Of a DNA stretch of 64,000 nucleotides, positions 8,232 to 46,144 are shown in pieces (position 1 is the first letter of the stretch; each line of letters starts with the position of its first letter). The notes beneath the pieces were generated by a model. That model did no database searches. It was not told where the DNA came from and saw only the letters and a program-made list of their open reading frames with translations. Made by a program: the position numbers and the translations under genes. The stretch comes from a virus: positions 1-64,000 of the IMG/VR virus record IMGVR_UViG_3300033149_003801; one strand, 5' to 3'.

Positions 8232-8396
8232 ATGAAAATGAAACAGCCTAAGCCAGTAATTTTGGAGGAGCTGGCGGCTAAGATTAAGTATATTGATCTA
8301 GCTAAGCTTTTGGAAAGTCCAAGGTTACGTGAACCGGAGCGGCAGGCAGCAGAAGAGTTGGCTAGGTGCAAATATGAAAACTATCAGCAGCGATAA
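8232..8396 (+). CDS. possible 54-aa protein (MKMKQPKPVILEELAAKIKY...)
   Basis: ATG after GGAAGGGAGGG. Below the ORF-track cutoff. Confidence 0.45.
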   Translation: MKMKQPKPVILEELAAKIKYIDLAKLLESPRLREPERQAAEELARCKYENYQQR

Positions 8397-8429
8397 CAGC
8401 TTTCGTAGCATTGTATATGAGGGGGCAAG

Positions 8430-9767
8430 ATGAACAAAGAGCAGCTAGAAATGCTGGTAGCAAGCATTCCGGGATGGAACGCTTGGCGCAAGGAAAACCA
8501 TAATGTAGAGATACATCTAGCCGGAGTGAATCTGCATGGAGCTAATTTAGTAGGTGCAGATCTAAGCAGAGCTAATCTGCATAAGGCCGACCTGAGCGGG
8601 GCCGACCTACACAAGGCTGACTTACGCTGGGCTAACCTAGAAGAGGCTGATCTGAGGGAGGTCAACCTACACAGGGCCAATCTGAAAGAGGCCGACCTGC
8701 GCCTGGCCAGCCTGAGGGAGGCCGATCTGAGTGGGGCCGACCTGCGCGAGACCGACCTGAGCGGGGCCAACCTGCGCCTGGCTAACCTGCGCCTGGCCAA
8801 CCTTGTGCAGGCAAGCCTTCATAAGGCGGACCTCCATGAGGCAGACTTAACTGGCACTGATCTGAGTGAAGCAGTTATGAGTGAGGCAGTTCTGAGATTG
8901 GCTAACCTTCGTGGAGCTGACCTGAAAGGAGTCGACCTACACAAGGCTGACTTGCGTGAAGTAGACCTGAGAGAAATTAGACTGGTCGGGATAAACATGA
9001 GTGGCGCTAATCTAGCAGGGGTCAATCTGCGCTCTGCAAATTTGTTTCACACAAATCTTCGTGAAGCAGATTTGCATGAAGCAAAGCTAGTTAACGCAGA
9101 CATGGAGTTCGTCAATCTGTGTAGAGCGAACTTGCATAGAGCTTCTCTTAGTGGAGCTAACTTGAGCGGGGCTGACCTGTATAAGGCAGATCTTTCAGAG
9201 ACAAACTTGCTTGGGGCAAGCATAGATGGGGCAGATATACGTAAGGCTGACTTGTATGGATCTAGCCTATATAAGGCCGACCTAAAATACTCAAAATTGC
9301 AAGGAGCCAATCTAACTTGGGCGAGTCTTATCAATGCTAACCTGCTTAGCACCGACCTAGATGGAGCTAATCTGGGCGGAGCGAGTTTGAGTGGTGCTTA
9401 TCTACATAAAGCCAACTTAAGCGGGGTGAAGGGTCTGCTTAAACAGGGGGAATGGCTAAAAGAGAATCTTGAATTTACGCCAGAAGGTGTTATAGCCTAT
9501 AAGGCGTTTGGCATGTATCATGCAGCTCCAGATAGTTGGCGTATAGAAGTTGGTGCAGAACTGCACGAAGTGTGCAACCCTAGTCCAACAAGTAATTCAG
9601 GATCAGGAATTCATGTAGCCACACTGCCCTGGGTTAGACGCTTTGTTAAGTCAAAGACAGTTTGGAAAGTTCTCATTCCCTGGGGTTCACAAATTGTGGT
9701 TCCCTATAACACAGCAGGAGAATTTCGCGTAGACACAGTTCGATTATTGGAGGTAGTAGCAGGGTGA
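8430..9767 (+). CDS. pentapeptide-repeat protein with unassigned ~110-aa C-terminal domain
   Basis: About 60 consecutive A(D/N)LxX pentapeptides (aa ~30-333), then KGLLKQGEWLKENLEF...CNP...GSGIHVATLPW...VPYNTAGEFRVDTV. Confidence 0.9.
   Translation: MNKEQLEMLVASIPGWNAWRKENHNVEIHLAGVNLHGANLVGADLSRANLHKADLSGADLHKADLRWANLEEADLREVNLHRANLKEADLRLASLREADLSGADLRETDLSGANLRLANLRLANLVQASLHKADLHEADLTGTDLSEAVMSEAVLRLANLRGADLKGVDLHKADLREVDLREIRLVGINMSGANLAGVNLRSANLFHTNLREADLHEAKLVNADMEFVNLCRANLHRASLSGANLSGADLYKADLSETNLLGASIDGADIRKADLYGSSLYKADLKYSKLQGANLTWASLINANLLSTDLDGANLGGASLSGAYLHKANLSGVKGLLKQGEWLKENLEFTPEGVIAYKAFGMYHAAPDSWRIEVGAELHEVCNPSPTSNSGSGIHVATLPWVRRFVKSKTVWKVLIPWGSQIVVPYNTAGEFRVDTVRLLEVVAG
8517..9428 (+). 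repeat. 15-nt-periodic coding repeat (pentapeptide repeats)
   Basis: Reiterated GC(N)GA(C/T)CT(G/A)... units. Produces R/S/L-rich mirror ORFs on the - strand. Confidence 0.85.
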
Positions 9768-10783
9768 AAGCAGCACAACTGGTTAGATTGAAAAAGGACA
9801 TAGCGAGTTGGAACATCTGGTATCAGGAGAATCCCAATGAGCAGATTGACCTAAGCTGGTCTGACATGATTGGAATTGACCTACATGAGGCTGACCTACA
9901 TGGCGCAAACTTGCAGGGGACTAATCTGGAGGATGCAAACTTGCGTAGGGCCGACCTAAATGGGGCTGACCTGCGTTGGACTGATTTACACGAGGCAAAC
10001 CTGAGAGGAGCCAACCTGTATAGAGCTAATCTTGAGCGAGCAAACCTGCAAGAAGTTGATCTCAGCTGGTCTAACCTGCAAGAGGCTATCCTGTGCAAGG
10101 CAGATATGTGGCAGGCGGATCTACACTGGTCTAACATGAGCGAAGCAAGCTTGTATGAGGCCAACCTAAGAGGGACTGACCTACATAAGGTTGATCTGTA
10201 CAATGCTGACTTGCGTCACGCTGATCTCAGCTTGACAGACTTGCACAATGCAAGTCTGCGCAAGGCTGACCTTAGCTGGTCTAACCTGCAGGAGGCAAAC
10301 CTATGCGAGGTTGATTTGCAAGAGGCGAATCTATACCAGTCCAACATGCGTAGAGCAAATTTGTGTGAGGCAAACTTAAAAGGAGCTGACCTGCGCCGAG
10401 CTAATCTGTGTGATACCGACCTGCGTCACGCTAACCTGAGTGGGACGAAGGGTTTGCTTAAACAGAAAGAATGGCTCAGAGAGAATCTTGAGTTTACACC
10501 AGATGGTATTGTAGCCTACAAGGCGTTTGGTTTGTATTTTAAGGTCCCTGACAGTTGGCATATAGAAGCTGGTGCAGAGCTGTATGAGGTATGCAACCCC
10601 TGTGCAACGAATGATTGTGGATCGGGGGTAAATGTGGGCACATTAACTTGGGTAAAATATCACTCCGAAACAAGAAAGATTTGGAAAGTTCTTATTCCTT
10701 GGGGCGCACGAATTGTAGTTCCCTATAACACAGCAGGAGGATTTCGCGTAGATACAGTTCGACTGTTGGGTGTGGTAGAATAA
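9764..10783 (+). CDS. pentapeptide-repeat protein, paralog of 8430..9767 with the same C-terminal domain
   Basis: GTG start overlaps the upstream stop (GTGA). Pentapeptide repeats cover aa ~29-228. C-terminal domain is about two-thirds identical to the upstream copy by hand alignment. Confidence 0.9.
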   Translation: MKAAQLVRLKKDIASWNIWYQENPNEQIDLSWSDMIGIDLHEADLHGANLQGTNLEDANLRRADLNGADLRWTDLHEANLRGANLYRANLERANLQEVDLSWSNLQEAILCKADMWQADLHWSNMSEASLYEANLRGTDLHKVDLYNADLRHADLSLTDLHNASLRKADLSWSNLQEANLCEVDLQEANLYQSNMRRANLCEANLKGADLRRANLCDTDLRHANLSGTKGLLKQKEWLRENLEFTPDGIVAYKAFGLYFKVPDSWHIEAGAELYEVCNPCATNDCGSGVNVGTLTWVKYHSETRKIWKVLIPWGARIVVPYNTAGGFRVDTVRLLGVVE

Positions 10784-11094: not shown

Positions 11095-12108
11095 ATGAGT
11101 GACCAGACAAACCAGGTAATAGCTGATATGCTTCGGGAGAATACGGGTGCACACTTGTTGGATAGCGGAAATTACTATGGGCGGCATTGGAAACATAATC
11201 GACAAATTGTAGATTTTGAAGATGAAAAAGAAGTAGAGCTCTATATTGATGATGTCTGTGGCATAGACATGACCATATCTGTATATCACTTTCTCACCAA
11301 AGCTCTGGAATTCTCTGAGGAGCTTGACCAGCTTTACAGTTGGTGGTTAAGTGAAGAGACCAGAATGTGGGAGCAGAATTCTCTCAAATGGCCCAATGGA
11401 TCAGCAATTCAAGACAGAGAATCTTCTTATCACCTCTCGGATATGAGGGACTTTGTTGATTGGCTGCGAGCAGAGGGCTTTGGAGTCTCTGGACTATATG
11501 GCGAAGGAGACCCATTTGTTGTCAACACATACAATGGTGCGTGCTTGCTAAGCCAAACGCTACAGTATATCTATTTTGAGCTTACCGCTCTACCTATGTG
11601 TCCAGACTCTACGGAACTAACCTGTGGTAGATATTGTCTTCTGCAAATACACAATGGATGTGATGCTAGAGGTGGATACACAGCACCAAGGGCCTTTAAG
11701 GTCCTTTCAGAGGAGGAATCACACCTTTTTCACGTCGCAAGAGGAACGATCATCTGCGAAAAAGACTATAGACATGCGTGGACTACAGACGACGCCTACA
11801 ATTGGTATCCAACAGGTAGCGACACAGGAGAGAAGCTAAATGATTACGAGGTGATTAGTCTTGAAGACGACAGCCTCATAGAGGAATTTAGAGAATGGAA
11901 AGCCAACCAGAAAAAAGTAATTCGTGTTGAAGATGGACAACAAGCGCTACCATTTATTGAAAATCCAGAGAAGCGCATGGAAGAAGTGAATAGTAAGATA
12001 ATTGCTACTGTCGGTGAATATGTTGCTCAGGTCTACAAGGCTGTCGGATGTGTAGATGGTACAGGCTTCTGTCCAATTTGTAATGGAAAGCTCAACGGAT
12101 ATATGTAA
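11095..12108 (+). CDS. hypothetical protein (C-terminal CPIC motif)
   Basis: 337-aa ORF with SD TAGGAG. Confidence 0.7.
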   Translation: MSDQTNQVIADMLRENTGAHLLDSGNYYGRHWKHNRQIVDFEDEKEVELYIDDVCGIDMTISVYHFLTKALEFSEELDQLYSWWLSEETRMWEQNSLKWPNGSAIQDRESSYHLSDMRDFVDWLRAEGFGVSGLYGEGDPFVVNTYNGACLLSQTLQYIYFELTALPMCPDSTELTCGRYCLLQIHNGCDARGGYTAPRAFKVLSEEESHLFHVARGTIICEKDYRHAWTTDDAYNWYPTGSDTGEKLNDYEVISLEDDSLIEEFREWKANQKKVIRVEDGQQALPFIENPEKRMEEVNSKIIATVGEYVAQVYKAVGCVDGTGFCPICNGKLNGYM

Positions 12109-17268: not shown

Positions 17269-19785
17269 ATGCTATTGAATGCGATCTTTGCATCGCTGCG
17301 TCCCACCGAACAGATATACGTATGGCGTAGAGAACCACACAAGAGATTACTCTTAGATAACCCCGGAGAAGTCTACGAGTTTGGTCAAAAGAACCAAACG
17401 TCAGATGTTTATTTTGGAGTCGCTCCGCGAATACGTGGAGAGTTTGATACCGTTAGCAGATTAACAACGGTCTGGGCAGATGTTGACTTCAAAGACTTTG
17501 GGGGGAGTACAGAGCGAGCAGCAAAAGCGGTGGGACGCTTTCCAGTTCTACCTTCCTTTGTAGTAAGGTCTGGACGTGGATGGCACATTTATTGGTTACT
17601 TGCATCGGACGTTAATCCAAAAATCGGACAGGAGATAATGCGCGGCATCATGCATATTATTGGGTCCTGTCCAGTACATGATCCAACCCACGTTCTCAGA
17701 ATACCAGGATCCTATCACTGTAAGGATCCAGATAATAGACTTAAAGTATTTCAAGAAGAGGAGCATCAAGATTATGTATATGACGCAGAAGACCTAAGAA
17801 GGCTCTGTAGATTAGGTGCAGAGACACTTGACGCTATCCCAACGCAGGTAAGAAAGGGTTTGCGAAGCGAACGTGACTGGAGAGTTATTCGAGAGCTAGT
17901 AGCTCTTAATGTCTCTGACAGAACGATATATCAAATAGCAGCCCAACGACCTATTGGAGAACGTTGGAGAGAGAACGACTTTCGGCTTCTGCGGCAAGAT
18001 CTTTCTAAGGCTAGGAGTCATTATGCTGTAGTTGAAGAGCGCTTTATTGAAGCGCTTGACGCTTGGTACTATGTGACAGCAAAAGGCAAGAGTCAGGTAT
18101 CAACTTTTGTATTCGAGCCACAGCGGCTCATTCATAGCATAGATGCGAGAACCGAAGACGTTTTTCTGGGGCGGATGCGTTCTACAGGAAGAATTTGGGA
18201 GGATGTTTTTCTTCCTCGAAATGCCTTTTCTTCAGCGCAATCGTTTCTTCGACAATTGCCTCTGATGCACTGGCAGTGGTTTGCAAACGACTATACGACC
18301 AAACAGCTCTTGGTCTTTTTGATGAAGCAACTACATGATGCTGGAATGCCAGAAGCATTTGGCACTCGTGTTGTTGGCAGACACGACAACTTTTGGGTAA
18401 CTAAAGAGGAAACTCTTGGACCGGATAGAAGCTACTCGCCTGATGAAGCTCCATATACATTTATTTCGTTGAACACATCTCATCGAGATGCTAAGGACGT
18501 CATTCCTAATTTGGCATATCCGGAGTGTTCCAACGAAGACTATAGAGAACTCGTTCAGGAGATATCTAGGTTACTGCCGAGAATAAATGAAGTTGACGTG
18601 TCCACTCCAACCATCGGATGGATTTTTGCAGCTCCTCTAAAACCACTTCTAAACGTTGTGGGAGTTCGTTTTCCCCATCTAAACATATATGGAACGATGG
18701 GTAGTGGAAAGACAGCATCGTTGGTAGACGTTTACCTCCCGTTATTGGGAGTGAAAAATCCCACAACACAGACGTCAGAGACAACGAAGTTCGTATTGCG
18801 TTTGCTGCTTTCCTCTAGCAATGCTGTTCCAATTGTATTTGGAGAATTCAGAGAAGCCCATACTGGTCCTTTAAGGAATGACTTTCTGTCCCTGTTGCGT
18901 ATGGCATATGACACAGGGATGGATTCCAGAGGGCGTGCAGACCTTACAACAGAGACATATATCTTAAGTGCCCCTGTGATTGTCGATGGAGAAGATGCTT
19001 TTGCCGATCCAGCACTTAGACAACGATCAATAACGGTGAATCTCCATCCAGAAACAATCGCTGAGGGATCTCCCAGCAATATCGCATTCAAAAAGTTAAC
19101 CTCCCTTCCCCTAAGGAATTTCGCTAGACGGTACATTCAGAGGACCCTAAGAGAAACTCCTTCTTCTGTAGAAGAGCGGTACAACCGTCTTCTAAAATTG
19201 ACCTATGAGAACTTTCCAGATCCCCTTCCAGACCGCGTTCGCAATGGCTTAGGAGTAGTATATCTTGGGATTGAACTGTTCAATGAACATGTCACAGCCT
19301 GGGGAGGACGGGCCATCTCTATGGAGAAGAGTTCATTCAAAGAACCTATGGACAATGTTCTTATGCGGCTAAAGACGGGGGTATCCAGAGCGCTCGTTGA
19401 TGATTTTGTTGAAGACGTAATTGTCTATATATCTAACGATGCAAATTTGCGAATTACGTTTATCAATTTTTACGATTCATCAACGAACATCCTATGGATA
19501 CACTTGAATTCTGCCATCCATTGGTGGACGAGATCTAGGAGATTTGAAGGTAAAACAGTTCTTGATAATCTTGCTCTACGAGCACAACTGATGGAGCGAT
19601 GCAATCCTACGACAGGGTATGCGATACCTGAGACTCCTATAAATACAAGCCGAGGAATAATACCATGCTTTGGTATAAAGATCTCTAACTGTCAGAATAT
19701 TGGTTTGTCTGTTCCGGATAGGTTATCTACAAAAATACTAGCTATGCGCGGAAATCTTATAACTGTAAAGGAGAAATATGGGTAG
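17269..19785 (+). CDS. AEP primase-polymerase fused to a P-loop (D5/SF3-like) helicase
   Basis: AEP motifs WADVDF, SGRGWHIYW, VHDPTHVLRIPGS. Walker A GTMGSGKT. Confidence 0.85.
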   Translation: MLLNAIFASLRPTEQIYVWRREPHKRLLLDNPGEVYEFGQKNQTSDVYFGVAPRIRGEFDTVSRLTTVWADVDFKDFGGSTERAAKAVGRFPVLPSFVVRSGRGWHIYWLLASDVNPKIGQEIMRGIMHIIGSCPVHDPTHVLRIPGSYHCKDPDNRLKVFQEEEHQDYVYDAEDLRRLCRLGAETLDAIPTQVRKGLRSERDWRVIRELVALNVSDRTIYQIAAQRPIGERWRENDFRLLRQDLSKARSHYAVVEERFIEALDAWYYVTAKGKSQVSTFVFEPQRLIHSIDARTEDVFLGRMRSTGRIWEDVFLPRNAFSSAQSFLRQLPLMHWQWFANDYTTKQLLVFLMKQLHDAGMPEAFGTRVVGRHDNFWVTKEETLGPDRSYSPDEAPYTFISLNTSHRDAKDVIPNLAYPECSNEDYRELVQEISRLLPRINEVDVSTPTIGWIFAAPLKPLLNVVGVRFPHLNIYGTMGSGKTASLVDVYLPLLGVKNPTTQTSETTKFVLRLLLSSSNAVPIVFGEFREAHTGPLRNDFLSLLRMAYDTGMDSRGRADLTTETYILSAPVIVDGEDAFADPALRQRSITVNLHPETIAEGSPSNIAFKKLTSLPLRNFARRYIQRTLRETPSSVEERYNRLLKLTYENFPDPLPDRVRNGLGVVYLGIELFNEHVTAWGGRAISMEKSSFKEPMDNVLMRLKTGVSRALVDDFVEDVIVYISNDANLRITFINFYDSSTNILWIHLNSAIHWWTRSRRFEGKTVLDNLALRAQLMERCNPTTGYAIPETPINTSRGIIPCFGIKISNCQNIGLSVPDRLSTKILAMRGNLITVKEKYG

Positions 19786-22144
19786 AGAAGACAGCTTCCG
19801 ACGGAAAGACCCACTTGCACAATGTGAAAAGTGCCCATTAGCAACGCAAGTAGGTATGTACGGTCGTGGAGATATAGAGGAGGGCGCCGGACAAGCGAAC
19901 GTAGTTATCGTCGGTGAGGGACCTGGAAGAACTGAGATTGCCTTACGCCAAGTATTCGTTGGCCCTAGTGGAAAACTTCTTCACCAAATGATGGAAAAAT
20001 ATCCTTTAGGTTCATTTTGGCTAACTAACGCCGCCCTCTGTGCAGGCACTAGTGCCAAGATGAAAACACAGGCTGCAGAATGTTGCAAAGAACGGCTGTT
20101 TGCAAAGATTGCAGAACTGAGACCAAAGGTCGTTGTTTCATTAGGAAACATTCCAACTAATATCTTTCTTGGTAAAGGAGAGGGAATTACAAATCGACGG
20201 GGAACAATAAATAACATTGAGATAAACGGGTGGAAAACTACCCTGGTCCCAACGTTTCATCCGGCGGCAATATTACGAAATAATGTTCTTTTGCAGGACT
20301 TGGAAGCAGACTTTGAAAAAGTATCAGATTTGATTTATGGCGAAGCCACAGGGAGAGCCATCGTTCTCCCTCCACAACCTAACGAGATAGACTTTGAGGT
20401 AACTACAGATTATCCCAGGGTATTAGAAGAAGCAGAACGAAGTGATTTTGCTGTATTAGACCTGGAAACAACAGGATTGGATATGACTAGAGATAAAATC
20501 ATCTGTGCTGTAATTGCTACAGATAGAAACATATATTTGCTACCACAGGAAACTCTGTATTCTCCGGACTTTATAAAACAGCTTCTACGATGCAAAGCGC
20601 ATTGGAGTGGGCATAACTCAAAGTTCGATAGAAACTTCCTAGCCTATCAATTAGGAGCACGGGTTGACTTCGCTTTCGACTCTATGTTAGCTCATTACTT
20701 GCTTGATGAACGCAAGGGAACTCACGGGCTCAAGGAGATTTGCCGAAGAACCTGGAACGCACCAGATTGGGAGCGTCCGATTCGAGAGCGAAAGAGGAGA
20801 AAAGAGATTGATAATTATGGGCAAATGCCACGAGAAGAATTGTATATATACGCGGCAAACGACGGCTATTGGCAACGGAAGTTGACCCAAAGTCTAGGGG
20901 ATGAGATCGCAGCGGACCGTCGTCTTCGTTGGCTGTTCTTAGAGCTTCTTATGCCTGCTTCCAATGCTCTGTCTGACATGGAGATCGTCGGGGTGCAGAT
21001 AGATCGTGACGCACTAAGTAGGCTAATTCCCAAATATGAGAAGAGGCTAGAGGATATTACGAAGGAACTTGTTCAGCTCGCTGGACACGATTTCAACCCA
21101 AGATCACCTATTCAGGTAGCTAAGGTTATGTTTGACGAGCTTGGGCTCCAGATGATCGAGGGTAGATCCACAGGGGCTAAGAATGTTCTCAAACGTTACA
21201 CCACGCCACATCCGTTCGTTACAAAACTGCTAGAGTTCCGAGAGGCAAATACAATTTACTCTCGATACATCAAGGGATTAGCGAAACACTTAGATCCTAT
21301 GGATCGAATACATACGTCGTTCAATTTGGCAGGAACAGTTACTGGTAGGCTATCTTCGAGTAATCCTAATTTACAGAACATTCCCAGTCGCGTGCCAGAG
21401 GCAGCAAAGGACATACGTGATTTGTTCGTCGCCGATGCTGGCTTGCTTTGGTCAGCAGCGGACTTTTCTCAGATAGAATTACGAATGATCGCCCTCCTGT
21501 CAGGAGATGAATATTTGGTAGGTTGCTATCAACAGGGCCGGGATTTGCACGCGGAGATGGCTAGGGAAATCTGGGGAGATAACTATACAAAAGCTCAACG
21601 CTTCCTCGCAAAAGGAGTCAATTTTGGATTGGCCTATGGAAGAACGGTAGAAGGCATCTTGACTGACGGAACCCTAAATATTTCACAAGAGGAGGCAGAG
21701 AGACTTGCTAGGCTATTCTTTCAGAGGATGCCAGGAGTTCTTAACTGGATTAAGGGAATACATAGGTTTGTCAGAGAGCATGGTTACATTGAGTCACCAT
21801 TGGGTAGGCGTCGCCATTTTAGAGAGACTACAATGTTCTCTTCCCAGGATTTTATATCCTGGGAGAAAGTATATCGTGAAGCAGTGAATATGCCTCCGCA
21901 AAGTGCCGCTAGTGACGCTACGCTATATTCACTCATTCAGCTTCATAAAAAAGGATTTGATATCAGACTCACTGTCCACGATGATATCAAAGTACAAGGA
22001 CCTAAAGATCAGATTCGTGACATCGCTAATGAACAAATACAAATCATGTCTCAAAGCGCACGAGATTTATATGGAGACAGTATTCCCTTTCCTGCAAGTG
22101 TGGAAATAGGGCGTAGATGGGGATCACTAGAGGAGATAAATTAG
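19778..22144 (+). CDS. family A DNA polymerase with N-terminal family-4 uracil-DNA glycosylase domain and 3'-5' exonuclease
   Basis: UDG: CEKC, GEGPG, GPSGKLL, FHPAAILRN. Exo: LDLETTGLD, HNSKFD, YAANDGYW. Pol: DFSQIELRMIA, KGVNFGLAYG, VHDD. Confidence 0.95.
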   Translation: MGREDSFRRKDPLAQCEKCPLATQVGMYGRGDIEEGAGQANVVIVGEGPGRTEIALRQVFVGPSGKLLHQMMEKYPLGSFWLTNAALCAGTSAKMKTQAAECCKERLFAKIAELRPKVVVSLGNIPTNIFLGKGEGITNRRGTINNIEINGWKTTLVPTFHPAAILRNNVLLQDLEADFEKVSDLIYGEATGRAIVLPPQPNEIDFEVTTDYPRVLEEAERSDFAVLDLETTGLDMTRDKIICAVIATDRNIYLLPQETLYSPDFIKQLLRCKAHWSGHNSKFDRNFLAYQLGARVDFAFDSMLAHYLLDERKGTHGLKEICRRTWNAPDWERPIRERKRRKEIDNYGQMPREELYIYAANDGYWQRKLTQSLGDEIAADRRLRWLFLELLMPASNALSDMEIVGVQIDRDALSRLIPKYEKRLEDITKELVQLAGHDFNPRSPIQVAKVMFDELGLQMIEGRSTGAKNVLKRYTTPHPFVTKLLEFREANTIYSRYIKGLAKHLDPMDRIHTSFNLAGTVTGRLSSSNPNLQNIPSRVPEAAKDIRDLFVADAGLLWSAADFSQIELRMIALLSGDEYLVGCYQQGRDLHAEMAREIWGDNYTKAQRFLAKGVNFGLAYGRTVEGILTDGTLNISQEEAERLARLFFQRMPGVLNWIKGIHRFVREHGYIESPLGRRRHFRETTMFSSQDFISWEKVYREAVNMPPQSAASDATLYSLIQLHKKGFDIRLTVHDDIKVQGPKDQIRDIANEQIQIMSQSARDLYGDSIPFPASVEIGRRWGSLEEIN

Positions 22145-43765: not shown

Positions 43766-46144
43766 TCAATGTCTCCTGGGCATTATGGAAACTCCCTTAT
43801 ACTTATTTGCAATGATCTTTAAGAGAGCGTTACTATCCTTGAGACTATCTTCGCGCCTCCGTCCTGTATTGTAACGATAAGCAAACAAAGGCTTCTTTAT
43901 GTGCTCTCCATAGAATCCATGCACCGCAAGATTTAGAATCAGATCCCAATCCTCCCATAAAGGGATGTTAGTGTCAAAACCACCAACTTCATCAAAGGCT
44001 GCTTTTGGCAATAAATTTGTTACAGCAAAGAGGGCCGCCCCAAGAAGTCTGTGAACATCCCATTCGGCAGCACTGTGAACCTTTCTATCTGGAAGAGACA
44101 CCCAATCTGTATATAGAATTCGAGGGTCCTCTTCTGGACACTGTGAAGCTACTTCCAAAGTAATATACAAAAAATCTCTATAAAGATAATCATCTGCATC
44201 TAGGAAACACAAGTATCGTCCTCTAGCTATGCTTGCCCCCAGGTTTCTTGCAGCGCTCACGTTATGCAAACAGTCGTTCCGCATCCAGCGAATCCAAGGA
44301 TAGGCTACTTTATAAGGTACAGATCCATAGTTCTCTATTCCACCCTCAGTTGTATCGTCAACGACGATAAGCTCCCAACGTGGGTCTGTCTGCGCTGCAA
44401 CTGATTCAATAGCATCTTGAAGAAATTTCTCATGTCCGTCTCCTACAGGTATTATTACACTAGCCTTAGGACAATCATAATTTCTCACAGGATGAGAGGG
44501 GTATTTTCTCTCTGGACTAATCGTAGCAGCGAAAGGTATCTCCCCTCCATATACACTAGGTAGCCAAGCTAACCAATCTGGTTCCTTTTTCCCCCGAACT
44601 GCCGCTGATGCACTGTTGTTATGTACACGATACTCATAGACAGTATGTCCCGTTGCTAATTTTGCATCATACCCAATCAAGGGAAACCTCGACCATAGCT
44701 CTGCATCCTCTGTAGGCGCAGTATGCTGACGATACCCTCCAGTTCTTAAGAAAGCTTCTCTGCGCATCATATTGCAAGCAGGAATACGATTTTTCCGCTT
44801 CAGTTGCTTTTTTGCCGAGAAGTCCTCTCCAGGCCAGTCACTTTGTGGAACAGTTACTGTGCCATCGGGACCCATAAGCGCAAGTTTGCCATAAACTATT
44901 CCAAGGGATCTATTGCGTAAGAGAGGATGAACAAGTTCCTCCATAAAATTTGGACATAGCCGATCATCTGCATCTAAAAAGGTAAGAAATGCCCCCCGTG
45001 CAGCCATCGCCCCGTTATTTCGTGCAGCAGCAACTCCGGAATTCTCTTGGGCAATTACTCTAAACCTTGGGTCGTTTCCAATAGTTTCACGTATTACATT
45101 CAGAGAGTCATCTGTTGATCCATCATCTACTACGATACACTCCCATTTATTATATGTTTGCTTGCGAACAGACTCAATTGCCTCACTTACCCACTGAGCA
45201 TAATTGTAACAAGGAATAATCACAGAGACGAGCCCCTCTGCTTCTTCTTCTGCTAAAACTACAGAATCCTTGTAACATTGGCGATACAGCTCCATTGCAG
45301 CTTTCCATGAGAAGTGAGACGCCTTTTTTCGTGTATTACTTCGTAGTCTGTCATAGTCTTCTATAACATTGTGAATAGCCTTAGCAGTACCCTCGAAATC
45401 TCCTGGGTCGACTAAAAAGCCATCTACGCCATCTTCGATAATGTCTCGAATAGCTCCCCAGGACCAACCAACTACAGGCAATCCGGCAGCCAGAGCCTCC
45501 AAGATTCCTATCCCAAAGGTCTCCTTTGTAGTAGCTAAGTATATTCCACAACTGTAGAGCATCTTCTTCATTTCAGCATGAGACACGGGCCCGGTAACTA
45601 CAACGTTATCTTGTACTTCCCCAAAAGTAGAAAGAAACTGAACATCCCTTGCAATCCGTGCGATCTCATTTACAGGTGTAGGATCGCACACATCTTCAGG
45701 ACGGTTCTTGTTCCACAAAACCACAGGGGGGGAGGTGTAGTCCTTTCGCTTCGGCCAAACTCTCAAGTCTATTCCATGTGGGATAACTCGCGGAAAGAAC
45801 CCCATATTCCTAGCGAATATCTCCCCTACCCATCGAGATGGAACAGTTACAATATGAGCCTGTCTTGCCCCTGCGATCACGCGACTATTTACTTCCCACA
45901 TCCAGCGATCAGCCTGTATTTCACCTGTTGGGTACAATCCGTGGCAGTGCAAAACATCTATCTGTCGTCTTCTACGAGTGTCATCTACAACGTGAACGGC
46001 ATAAACATCAGCATTGCTGAGATCATCTACAAATGTTACTCCAAGTTCTGGGAGTCTCTGGTACATCGTGTAGACTACTCTTGCAATTCCACTGTTCAGA
46101 TTGCTTTCAGACGGCTGCTTTGGATGCAAAAATACAGTAGTCAT
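43766..46144 (-). CDS. three-domain glycosyltransferase (GT4-like GT-B plus two GT2 GT-A modules)
   Basis: ETFGIGILEALAAGLPVVG...GVDGFLV; VSVIIPCYNYAQWVSEAIESV..QTY...VVDDGSTDDS...FLDADD; ASVIIPVGDG...AIESVAAQT...VVDD...FLDADDYL. Confidence 0.9.
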   Translation of the reverse strand: MTTVFLHPKQPSESNLNSGIARVVYTMYQRLPELGVTFVDDLSNADVYAVHVVDDTRRRRQIDVLHCHGLYPTGEIQADRWMWEVNSRVIAGARQAHIVTVPSRWVGEIFARNMGFFPRVIPHGIDLRVWPKRKDYTSPPVVLWNKNRPEDVCDPTPVNEIARIARDVQFLSTFGEVQDNVVVTGPVSHAEMKKMLYSCGIYLATTKETFGIGILEALAAGLPVVGWSWGAIRDIIEDGVDGFLVDPGDFEGTAKAIHNVIEDYDRLRSNTRKKASHFSWKAAMELYRQCYKDSVVLAEEEAEGLVSVIIPCYNYAQWVSEAIESVRKQTYNKWECIVVDDGSTDDSLNVIRETIGNDPRFRVIAQENSGVAAARNNGAMAARGAFLTFLDADDRLCPNFMEELVHPLLRNRSLGIVYGKLALMGPDGTVTVPQSDWPGEDFSAKKQLKRKNRIPACNMMRREAFLRTGGYRQHTAPTEDAELWSRFPLIGYDAKLATGHTVYEYRVHNNSASAAVRGKKEPDWLAWLPSVYGGEIPFAATISPERKYPSHPVRNYDCPKASVIIPVGDGHEKFLQDAIESVAAQTDPRWELIVVDDTTEGGIENYGSVPYKVAYPWIRWMRNDCLHNVSAARNLGASIARGRYLCFLDADDYLYRDFLYITLEVASQCPEEDPRILYTDWVSLPDRKVHSAAEWDVHRLLGAALFAVTNLLPKAAFDEVGGFDTNIPLWEDWDLILNLAVHGFYGEHIKKPLFAYRYNTGRRREDSLKDSNALLKIIANKYKGVSIMPRRH

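What the first reader, a model, noticed from the sequence alone, without database searches (positions are those of the whole stretch)
8430..10783. Tandem, translationally coupled pentapeptide-repeat proteins sharing an unassigned C-terminal domain
Seen:
- Two adjacent early genes overlap by GTGA.
- Each has a WN.W..EN N-terminus followed by a long uninterrupted A(D/N)LxX array (about 60 and about 40 pentapeptides).
- Each ends in a ~110-aa non-repeat domain (KGLLKQ.EWL.ENLEFTP.G..AYKAFG...PDSW.IE.GAEL.EVCNP....GSG..V.TL.WV.....WKVLIPWG..IVVPYNTAG.FRVDTVRLL).
- That domain is about two-thirds identical between the copies by hand alignment.

Established: pentapeptide-repeat proteins form right-handed quadrilateral beta-helices that mimic B-DNA. 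Qnr and MfpA act on DNA gyrase in this way.

Inference: a phage early-expressed DNA mimic fused to an effector or anchoring domain could target host gyrase or DNA-binding defence nucleases, in an Ocr-like way. The duplication with divergence suggests two specificities. I could not assign the C-terminal domain.
Basis: partly seen in the sequence, partly recalled or inferred. Interest (0 to 1): 0.75.

Follow-up and report, generated by a model that had tools for sequence, protein, structure and literature searches.

The report
Pentapeptide rods capped by rIIB-like domain
Two overlapping phage genes encode very long pentapeptide-repeat beta-helix proteins whose shared, previously unassigned end domain is a distant relative of the conserved core of the T4 rIIB protein and defines a large, unnamed, phage-only family whose function has not been tested.

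Summary
ORF A (8430-9767, 445 aa) and ORF B (9764-10783, 339 aa) overlap by GTGA. They carry about 61 and 40 pentapeptides in unbroken register. Each ends in a ~112-aa domain; the two copies are 68% identical (dN/dS 0.20).

I could assign that domain. It has no hit in Pfam, PHROGs, NCBIfam, PADLOC, PDB sequences or PDB folds. An exhaustive profile search found 847 cluster representatives, almost all built as a pentapeptide array followed by this domain. They occur only on phage contigs or MAG contigs from many phyla, and never in 50,697 deposited phage genomes.

Four lines of evidence tie it to the conserved core of rIIB (T4 residues ~196-308):
- fold matches (TM 0.65-0.72);
- profile-profile alignment about 6 SD above shuffled controls;
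- reciprocal HMM hits;
- weak tblastn hits that fall almost only in rIIB genes.

The repeat rod varies from about 1 to 61 pentads while the end domain stays constant. The end domain is therefore the functional unit.

The gyrase or Ocr-like DNA-mimic idea is not supported, and it is not excluded for these two long copies. Most likely these are early accessory proteins doing an rIIB-like job, whose biochemistry is unknown. This is a new variant of a known kind, of moderate interest.

The parts
8419..8425 (+). Shine-Dalgarno-like GAGGGGG, 4 nt before the ATG of ORF A
   Evidence: Read directly from the sequence
8430..9767 (+). ORF A, 445 aa: N-terminal cap, pentapeptide array and rIIB-core-like C-terminal domain
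   Evidence: ORF list; PF00805 E = 3e-88
8430..8504 (+). A: N-terminal cap (aa 1-25) with the GWNAWRKEN motif
   Evidence: the same W-N-x-W motif occurs in family members P0053, P0062, P0091 and P0125
8505..9428 (+). A: about 61 pentapeptides in unbroken register (aa 26-333), roughly 15 coils of a quadrilateral beta-helix; net charge -10
   Evidence: Register and charge; Pfam; only old, degenerate DNA tandem structure at 8652-8803
9429..9764 (+). A: C-terminal domain (aa 334-445), rIIB-core-like; lacks the near-invariant Cys57 (Ser), has His62 as in rIIB, and has Glu at the conserved Lys98 position
   Evidence: AF2 pLDDT 93.8, pTM 0.87; homology evidence; shared-core table
9749..9753 (+). Shine-Dalgarno GGAGG for ORF B, inside the 3' end of ORF A, 10 nt before the GTG
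   Evidence: Read directly from the sequence
9764..9767 (+). GTGA overlap: start codon of B (GTG) shares two bases with the stop codon of A (TGA)
9764..10783 (+). ORF B, 339 aa: same architecture with a shorter array
   Evidence: PF00805 E = 4e-84; BLASTP against A gives E = 1e-104
9845..10447 (+). B: about 40 pentapeptides (aa 28-228), roughly 10 coils; net charge -14 including the N-terminal cap
10448..10780 (+). B: C-terminal domain (aa 229-339), rIIB-core-like; keeps Cys57 and Asn62, and has Gly at the conserved Lys98 position

Best explanation
Each gene encodes a two-module phage accessory protein.

Module 1 is a right-handed quadrilateral beta-helix rod built from pentapeptide repeats. 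I estimate it at about 15 coils (~75 A) in A and about 10 coils (~50 A) in B.

Module 2 is a compact ~112-aa alpha/beta domain. It is a remote homolog of the conserved core of the rIIB protein of T4-like and N4-like phages, and more distantly of DUF7666.

Module 2 is the constant, functional unit of a large phage-only family. The rod is an optional N-terminal extension of variable length. It probably acts as a spacer or as a surface for binding a target.

I infer that the pair is made early, in roughly equal amounts through coupled translation, and possibly works as an A-B pair. I also infer that the end domain does whatever the rIIB core does. The T4 literature describes rIIB as keeping the infected cell productive against membrane-directed abortive-infection or prophage-exclusion systems, and/or linking replication to the membrane.

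Shown here: the gene structure, the repeat architecture, the fold model, the family and its phage-only distribution, the homology to rIIB, and purifying selection.

Inferred: expression timing, A-B pairing, and the counter-defence or host-takeover role. The biochemical activity of the rIIB core is unknown.
For: Gene structure and repeats.

Family:
- 847 representatives at E <= 1e-3 and 639 at E <= 1e-10, with the domain C-terminal in nearly all.
- A second search gave 582 proteins whose only precomputed Pfam hits are pentapeptide families.

Fold: AF2 pLDDT 93.8 and pTM 0.87 with 63 sequences.

Homology to rIIB, four lines:
1. BFVD Foldseek gave probability 1.00 and TM 0.65-0.72 to RIIB proteins of Vibrio, Aeromonas, RB43, Pseudomonas and Acinetobacter phages.
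2. hhalign against 120 T4-like rIIB proteins aligns domain positions 8-113 with T4 rIIB ~196-308. The score is 28.9, against 12.4 +/- 2.6 for column shuffles (maximum 20.0 of 200) and 13.9 +/- 2.5 for block shuffles. hhalign against the Xanthomonas PB119 rIIB gives probability 77% and E = 2e-5.
3. The domain HMM hits 82 of 120 rIIB proteins (T4 rIIB E = 7e-8 in that set). The rIIB C-terminal HMM hits 15 family members, the best at 1e-8.
4. tblastn of the family consensus against 50,697 phage genomes gave 14 weak hits. In 11 the gene is annotated rIIB or rIIB-like, and 2 more are unnamed GenBank duplicates of RefSeq records annotated RIIB; only the Burkholderia phage hit has no such link.

Shared invariant residues: G20/G209, K25/K215, G42/G234, C57/C252, G60/G255, Y93/Y291, K98/K295, R100/R297.

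Phage-only distribution and early or replication context.

End domain constant, rod variable:
- median 13 pentads, 5th percentile 4;
- P0317 is a complete 122-aa gene with 1-2 pentads, lying between a cI-like repressor and ERF, SSB and primase genes.

Independent tandem or multiple copies in other phages: L011, L012, L023 plus L038.

Selection: dN/dS 0.20.

rIIB biology:
- needed to overcome RexAB, by an unknown mechanism, and it triggers a bacterial gasdermin system (PMC10312443);
- it triggers Tmn, with the specificity residue 219 inside the homologous segment, and is described as an early-to-middle, replisome-membrane-associated protein (PMC13001434).
Against: - The similarity to rIIB is remote: 23% identity, with hhalign probabilities of only 6-41% against the T4-like profile.
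- None of the family members listed carries the rIIB Pfam family PF26926 in the precomputed annotations (the window proteins themselves are not in that set).
- The window proteins lack the N-terminal HTH of rIIB, and the window has no rIIA-like partner.
- Both window copies have replaced the conserved Lys98 (Glu in A, Gly in B), and A has also lost Cys57. They may not keep the ancestral activity.
- rIIB itself has no known biochemical mechanism, so 'works like rIIB' transfers a phenotype and not a mechanism.
- There is no expression, localisation or interaction evidence.
- The best fold matches came from the first, lower-confidence model (pLDDT 75).
Confidence: 0.5

Rival explanations
1. The pentapeptide rod is a B-DNA mimic that binds host gyrase or DNA-binding defence nucleases (restriction-modification, BREX) in a Qnr, MfpA or Ocr-like way. 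The C-terminal domain only anchors or dimerises the mimic.
For: - The repeat fold is that of Qnr, MfpA and AlbG (established knowledge), and generic repeat similarity to those models exists.
- The arrays are net acidic: pI 5.7 and 4.9.
- The A and B arrays are the longest seen among about 245 complete family members, so in this phage the rod itself may have gained importance.
- Family genes sit near replication genes.
Against: - Qnr and MfpA curated cutoffs are missed by more than twofold.
- Net charge per residue is only -0.03 and -0.06, which I recall as several-fold weaker than Ocr (Ocr was not computed here).
- The family keeps the C-terminal domain while the array falls to 1-4 pentads in 22 of 245 members. 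The conserved function cannot be DNA mimicry.
- The C-terminal domain is under strong constraint and shares invariant polar residues with rIIB, more than a simple anchor would need.
Confidence: 0.15
2. Decoy or sensor-blocker. Because rIIB-core domains are what some defence systems (Tmn, gasdermin/CARD) detect, stand-alone or rod-mounted copies of the domain could act as decoys. They would occupy or mis-activate such sensors rather than carry out the rIIB function itself.
For: - RIIB is the direct trigger of Tmn, and residue 219 within the homologous segment decides activation.
- RIIB alone activates the gasdermin system.
- The window copies have lost conserved polar residues (C57 in A, K98 in both) while staying under purifying selection. 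A binder that no longer needs an activity could look like this.
Against: - The window phage has no canonical rIIB to protect.
- Most family members keep all the invariant residues.
- No defence system is known to sense this family.
Confidence: 0.08
3. Virion-associated or injected protein. The beta-helix rods would be structural, for example fibre-like or ejected with the DNA.
For: - Weak PHROG similarity of the repeats to a 'tail fiber protein' family (E about 0.01).
- Beta-helices are common in phage fibres.
Against: - The genes lie on the + strand in the small-gene and replication arm, 15 kb or more from the minus-strand structural block and on the opposite strand.
- Relatives lie beside repressor, ERF, SSB and primase genes.
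- The PHROG hit is driven by the repeats and is not significant.
Confidence: 0.04

Closest known systems
rIIB of T4-like phages (T4 residues ~196-308; newer Pfam family PF26926) and rIIB-like proteins of N4-like phages (for example Xanthomonas virus PB119, residues ~213-318)
   Same: - Homologous ~110-residue core with the same order of motifs: E-x-T-x-D-G-x-I-x-Y/W-K; P-G; V-N/D...C-x-x-G-I/L-N/H-V; Y-N-x-x-x-K-x-R.
- Invariant G, K, G, C, G, Y, K and R are shared.
- The fold matches at TM 0.65-0.72.
- Both are phage-encoded, non-structural, and lie on the early or replication side of the genome.
   Different: - No N-terminal HTH and no adjacent rIIA GHKL-ATPase gene.
- The domain is fused behind a pentapeptide beta-helix.
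- Most of the family has Asn where rIIB has His in the G-L-H motif.
- Family members are not recognised by PF26926 in the precomputed annotations.
- The two window copies lack the conserved Lys98, and A also lacks Cys57.
DUF7666 (Pfam PF24703), for example the N-terminus of Rheinheimera phage Barba28A gp041; also found in giant-virus ankyrin-repeat and DUF4116 proteins
   Same: - Fold-level similarity (TM ~0.5).
- The same motif skeleton (G-Y-K-A-F ... N-G-L-H-F ...).
- Also fused to repeat scaffolds: another pentapeptide type in Barba28A, and proteins named ankyrin-repeat in giant viruses.
   Different: - None of the 63 family domains reaches the DUF7666 HMM even at E <= 1.
- hhalign against Barba28A gp041 finds nothing.
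- In Barba28A the domain is N-terminal to the repeats, not C-terminal.
Qnr, MfpA and AlbG: pentapeptide-repeat DNA mimics that act on DNA gyrase
   Same: Same repeat type and presumably the same quadrilateral beta-helix fold. Both are mildly acidic.
   Different: - The curated family cutoffs are not met.
- Those proteins are ~180-220 aa and dimerise through a C-terminal helix (from memory). These are 339 and 445 aa with a globular rIIB-like end domain.
- The array length is not conserved across the family.
Pentapeptide beta-helix scaffolds fused to an effector module in secreted bacterial effectors (Salmonella SopA, PipB, PipB2)
   Same: Same architectural logic: a pentapeptide beta-helix next to a separate functional module. 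The generic repeat similarity is visible in NCBIfam.
   Different: Unrelated C-terminal modules (a HECT-like ligase in SopA and a kinesin-binding tail in PipB2, both from memory). The biology is also different: type III secretion into eukaryotic cells.

Membership tests
Pentapeptide-repeat proteins (Pfam PF00805) | Tandem A(D/N)LXX pentapeptides that match the Pfam model above its gathering score | tested here: met
   289 and 276 bits against a cutoff of 20.2. Unbroken period-5 register for about 61 and about 40 repeats.
Qnr / MfpA gyrase-protecting pentapeptide proteins | Score above the curated NCBIfam cutoff for the Qnr or MfpA family | tested here: not met
   Protein A: Qnr 107 bits against 240, MfpA 81 against 360. 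Protein B: Qnr 65.5 and MfpA 48.8 bits.
Qnr / MfpA gyrase-protecting pentapeptide proteins | Binding to or protection of DNA gyrase | not testable with these tools
   Needs supercoiling and cleavage assays with purified protein.
Ocr-type DNA mimics | Dense, DNA-like array of surface negative charge | tested here: not met
   Net charge is -10 over 333 residues in A and -14 over 228 in B, with many Lys, Arg and His among the acidic residues. I recall this as several-fold weaker than Ocr; Ocr itself was not computed here.
rIIB (T4-type; newer Pfam PF26926) | Homologous conserved core domain (T4 residues ~196-308) | tested here: met
   Foldseek TM 0.65-0.72. hhalign is about 6 SD above shuffles. 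Probability 77% and E = 2e-5 against PB119 rIIB. Reciprocal HMM hits. tblastn hits concentrate in rIIB genes.
rIIB (T4-type; newer Pfam PF26926) | Recognised by the family's own Pfam model | tested here: not met
   All 120 rIIB homologs carry PF26926 in the precomputed annotations. None of the 122 listed relatives of the window domain does. PF26926 is not in the local Pfam copy, so the window proteins could not be scanned directly.
rIIB (T4-type; newer Pfam PF26926) | N-terminal helix-turn-helix region | tested here: not met
   T4 rIIB shows HTH hits at residues 7-50. A and B have none.
rIIB (T4-type; newer Pfam PF26926) | Adjacent rIIA (GHKL ATPase) partner gene | tested here: not met
   PB119 has an HATPase_c protein directly upstream of its rIIB. 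No window ORF matches rIIA or rIIB at E <= 10. Neighbouring ORFs have no such domain. About 7 kb of the 71.4-kb source contig lies outside the window.
rIIB (T4-type; newer Pfam PF26926) | Relief of RexAB-type exclusion | not testable with these tools
   This is a genetic phenotype and needs infection experiments.
DUF7666 (Pfam PF24703) | Match to the Pfam model | tested here: not met
   0 of 63 family domains match at E <= 1. The model is in the library, because Barba28A gp041 scores 75.5 bits.
Unnamed family: pentapeptide array followed by an rIIB-core-like C-terminal domain (defined here) | The domain matches the family profile and sits at the C-terminus directly after a pentapeptide array, with a ...N-L-S-G-x-K-G-L-L junction | tested here: met
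   A scores E = 2.3e-40 and B 5.4e-42 against the 63-sequence profile. Architecture is shared with the 150 listed representatives.

The most novel reading that the evidence does not exclude
The rIIB core, together with DUF7666, is a portable viral effector module. Phages and giant viruses mount it on interchangeable scaffolds: an HTH in T4 rIIB, pentapeptide rods here, ankyrin repeats in giant viruses. The pentapeptide-mounted and near stand-alone 110-120-aa versions would be minimal rIIB analogues that neutralise membrane-directed abortive-infection systems (Rex-like, Tmn-like or gasdermin-like) in hosts from many bacterial phyla, without needing rIIA. The tandem A/B pair in this phage would represent two target specificities set by rods of different length.
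Probability: 0.2. Interest if true: 0.8.

Novelty: new variant of a known kind. Interest (0 to 1): 0.55.

Why it matters
rII is one of the founding loci of molecular genetics, yet what rIIB does biochemically is still unknown. Recent work shows that it both counters one bacterial defence (RexAB) and triggers others (gasdermin/CARD, Tmn).

This analysis shows three things:
- The conserved rIIB core exists as a small, separable domain of about 112 residues.
- That domain is found in hundreds of phage lineages infecting very different bacteria.
- It comes without rIIA, without the HTH, and sometimes almost alone.

That gives experimenters minimal, soluble-looking versions to crystallise, express and use in pull-downs. 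It also gives a set of invariant residues to mutate (K25, C57, G60, Y93, K98, R100). Finally, it corrects the default annotation 'pentapeptide repeat protein', which describes only the variable, probably accessory, part of these proteins.

Tried and rejected
- Curated libraries. Sequence searches of the domain against Pfam, PHROGs, NCBIfam, PADLOC and PDB found nothing.
- PDB fold search. Both the pLDDT-75 and the pLDDT-93.8 models gave no match (best E 0.83, TM below 0.25). No solved structure has this fold, at least as far as Foldseek can tell.
- Word-indexed homolog search with one sequence. It found only 2 relatives and badly under-reported the family. The exhaustive profile search was needed.
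- Deposited phage genomes. tblastn of the window domain found no match. The pentapeptide part matches 446 phage records, but none includes this end domain. The slightly longer match in Staphylococcus phage SAP6 is repeat only.
- Genome-terminus idea. Many family genes sit at contig ends, which briefly suggested a first-injected gene like T7 0.3. I rejected this: in 14 loci the ORF is cut inside the repeat array, so these are most simply assembly breaks at repeats.
- Conserved partner gene. All-against-all clustering of neighbours in 55 loci found none. The only cluster present in every locus consists mainly of spurious antisense ORFs across the repeat arrays, and the next most common neighbour is SSB in 8 loci.
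- Extra N-terminal modules. I suspected a macro-like module in P0055, P0061, P0084 and P0092. Pfam does not support it; there is only a weak SH3-like hit in P0049.
- Cys-His catalytic pair or zinc site. I rejected this as a general feature. The family has Asn where rIIB has His, and copy A lacks the Cys.
- Identifying the phage. There is no megablast hit and the polymerase is about 30% identical to the nearest cultured phages. Only the polymerase sequence is in the public protein collection, from a 71,397-bp JGI contig, and that record could not be retrieved. There are no tRNAs. The host remains unknown.
Full report
**1. The observation**

ORF A (8430-9767, ATG, 445 aa) and ORF B (9764-10783, GTG, 339 aa) lie on the + strand. 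They overlap by GTGA at 9764-9767. Each has a purine-rich ribosome-binding site: GAGGGGG at 8419-8425, and GGAGG at 9749-9753. B's N-terminus aligns with A's from residue 1, which supports the GTG start.

Both proteins match Pfam PF00805 at E about 1e-88 and 1e-84. Printed in rows of four pentads, A stays in perfect period-5 register from residue 26 to 333 (about 61 pentads). B does so from about 28 to 228 (about 40 pentads).

The last 112 and 111 residues are non-repeat and 68% identical. Synonymous divergence is near saturation (dS 0.89) and dN/dS is 0.20. The duplication is therefore old, and both copies are maintained by selection. TRF finds only degenerate 15/30/45-nt periodicity at 8652-8803, so the arrays have not expanded recently.

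**2. The genome**

The window is a tailed phage.
- The + strand carries small genes, then AAA_24, a primase-like 850-aa protein, a UDG-exonuclease-PolA fusion and an SNF2 helicase.
- The minus strand carries terminase, tape measure, tail and fibre proteins, and a peptidase.
- The strand switch coincides with a change of GC-skew sign.

It has no megablast match among 50,697 deposited phages. Its polymerase is about 30% identical to the nearest cultured relatives. Only the polymerase sequence was found in the public protein collection, on a 71,397-bp JGI contig. The host is unknown.

'Early' is an inference from gene position.

**3. The C-terminal domain is unclassified but common**

It has no hit in Pfam, PHROGs, NCBIfam, PADLOC or PDB sequences, either alone or as a 63-sequence profile. 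A word-indexed search found only two relatives.

An exhaustive profile search of 1.84 billion cluster representatives found 847 at E <= 1e-3 and 639 at E <= 1e-10. A second search found 582 proteins, and their only precomputed Pfam hits are pentapeptide families.

In almost all of them the domain is the extreme C-terminus. It is preceded by a short capping helix and a pentapeptide array.

The family occurs on at least 39 IMG/VR viral contigs. In 185,579 GTDB species genomes it was found only on 11 contigs. All are metagenome-assembled, from Patescibacteria, Bacillota, Actinomycetes, Phycisphaerae, Chitinophagaceae and a cyanobacterium. It is absent from deposited phage genomes.

Genomic contexts are phage early or replication regions. 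The genes sit in runs of small unknown genes beside AAA_24/ERCC4/primase, NrdD/dUTPase/RNA ligase, SSB/DUF1064, or cI-like repressor/ERF/SSB/primase. No neighbour is conserved.

**4. What the domain is**

With 63 sequences, AlphaFold2 gives pLDDT 93.8 and pTM 0.87. The model has an N-terminal helix, a second short helix and seven strands. Foldseek finds nothing like it in PDB (best E 0.83, TM below 0.25).

Against viral predicted structures, the first (pLDDT 75) model matched RIIB proteins of T4-like phages at probability 1.00 and TM 0.65-0.72. Further down the list were DUF7666 proteins, giant-virus ankyrin-repeat and DUF4116 proteins, and a Rheinheimera phage protein named 'pentapeptide'.

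Sequence tests agree with the fold result:
- hhalign of the family against 120 rIIB homologs aligns domain positions 8-113 with T4 rIIB ~196-308. The score is 28.9, against 12.4 +/- 2.6 for column-shuffled and 13.9 +/- 2.5 for block-shuffled controls. No shuffle exceeded 22.1.
- Against the N4-like rIIB of Xanthomonas virus PB119, the probability is 77% and E is 2e-5, aligning with residues 213-316. That gene follows an rIIA-like HATPase_c gene.
- The domain HMM hits 82 of 120 rIIB proteins (T4 rIIB E = 7e-8 in that set). The reverse HMM hits 15 family members.
- tblastn of the family consensus against all deposited phages returns 14 weak hits. In 11 the gene is annotated rIIB or rIIB-like, and 2 more are unnamed GenBank duplicates of RefSeq records annotated RIIB.

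Positions conserved at 70% or more in both families, with the same residue:

| Window domain | T4 rIIB |
|---|---|
| E15 | E204 |
| G20 | G209 |
| I22 | I212 |
| K25 | K215 |
| G42 | G234 |
| C57 | C252 |
| G60 | G255 |
| V91 | V289 |
| Y93 | Y291 |
| K98 | K295 |
| R100 | R297 |

At position 62 the family has Asn (95%) where rIIB has His.

DUF7666 shows the same motif skeleton. However, it is not reached by sequence: 0 of 63 domains match the model, and hhalign against Barba28A gp041 finds nothing. I treat it as a more distant branch.

**5. Which module carries the function**

Among 245 complete family members, the array has a median of 13 pentads, a 5th percentile of 4 and a maximum of 48 by my counting rule. 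A and B score 66 and 41 by the slightly looser rule used, which makes A the longest and B the third longest in that set of 154.

P0317 is a complete, internal 122-aa gene with only one or two pentads before the domain. The end domain is therefore the constant unit, and the rod is an optional extension of variable length.

Tandem or multiple copies arose independently in other phages. L011 and L012 each hold two copies. L023 holds an adjacent pair with nearly identical end domains, and a third copy lies elsewhere on the same contig.

**6. The window copies are atypical**

Both replace the conserved Lys98 (Glu in A, Gly in B) and Asp96 (Ala in both). A also replaces Cys57 with Ser, and has His62 as rIIB does. 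They remain under purifying selection, so they are functional. They may, however, differ in activity from typical members.

**7. Mechanism**

Per the cited papers:
- rIIB is required to overcome RexAB, by an unknown mechanism.
- It was toxic when expressed in E. coli in one study and not toxic to control cells in the other.
- It is sufficient to trigger a bacterial gasdermin system (PMC10312443).
- It directly activates the Tmn NTPase. Residue 219 decides activation. That preprint also describes RIIB as an early-to-middle protein linking the replisome to the membrane (PMC13001434).

By the alignment, residue 219 lies inside the homologous segment, four residues after the invariant Lys.

I therefore favour this reading: A and B are early accessory proteins whose end domain does the rIIB-core job, with the rod as spacer or target-binding surface. 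The GTGA overlap would give roughly equal production, and perhaps an A-B pair.

Timing, pairing and the counter-defence role are inferences.

**8. The DNA-mimic model**

Several results count against it as the conserved function:
- The Qnr and MfpA cutoffs are missed by more than twofold.
- The one NCBIfam cutoff that is passed (Alr5209) is reached by summing 4-6 stretches of generic repeat.
- Net charge per residue is only -0.03 and -0.06.
- The family tolerates near loss of the rod.

It remains possible that the exceptionally long rods of this phage have taken on such a role.

**9. Novelty**

Pentapeptide proteins in phages are known, and so is rIIB. Four things appear to be undescribed:
- the fusion family itself;
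- its size and its restriction to phages;
- the recognition that its end domain is an rIIB-core homolog;
- the existence of near stand-alone versions.

No paper in the library mentions DUF7666, and the Pfam versions checked here, the local copy and the newer precomputed annotations, do not cover the domain. I rate it a new variant of a known kind, interest 0.55.

Noticed in passing
window 19778-22144 (+): A single 788-aa ORF fuses a uracil-DNA-glycosylase-superfamily domain (aa 35-170), a 3'-5' exonuclease and a family A DNA polymerase. It is only about 30% identical to the nearest cultured-phage polymerases.
   Followed up: partly
window 43766-46144 (-): A 792-aa protein with two glycosyltransferase-like regions (GtrB-like) sits inside the structural-gene block. 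That is an unusual place for such an enzyme.
   Followed up: no
window 8384-8800, 9047-9352, 9823-10203 (-): Long antisense ORFs run across the pentapeptide arrays. They are by-products of the repeat periodicity. The equivalent spurious ORFs recur in every family locus and formed the largest 'neighbour' cluster.
   Followed up: yes
L001, L010, L011, L017, L018, L020, L023, L025, L029, L033, L039, L040, L047, L050, L057 (contig ends): Metagenomic contigs often end inside the pentapeptide array of family genes, so many database entries for this family are N-terminally truncated. This is most simply an assembly break at repetitive DNA, not a genome terminus.
   Followed up: partly
L023 2-664 and 668-1990; L038 5407-6312 (IMGVR_UViG_3300033121_001439): An unrelated high-GC phage has its own adjacent pair of family genes with nearly identical end domains, plus a third copy about 30 kb away. 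Tandem duplication of this gene is therefore recurrent.
   Followed up: partly
T4 rIIB residue 219 (L003) = window domain position ~29: The single RIIB residue reported to decide activation of the Tmn defence system (D219 in T2, S219 in T4) lies within the segment homologous to the window domain, just after the invariant Lys.
   Followed up: partly
window 11095-12108 (+): The 337-aa ORF just downstream of the pair belongs to PHROG 11344 (unknown function, E = 2e-25) and has no Pfam hit. It is not a conserved neighbour of family genes elsewhere.
   Followed up: partly
P0055, P0061, P0084, P0092; P0021, P0034, P0049, P0101: Some family members carry an additional unassigned N-terminal module of 60-140 aa ahead of the pentapeptide array. 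There are two recurring types, one weakly SH3-like. Neither is recognised by Pfam.
   Followed up: partly
L059 1-723 and 1432-1881 (Rheinheimera phage Barba28A gp041 and gp043): Barba28A has two pentapeptide genes about 700 bp apart. gp041 combines an N-terminal DUF7666 with Pentapeptide_2-type repeats, which is the reverse domain order to the window proteins.
   Followed up: partly
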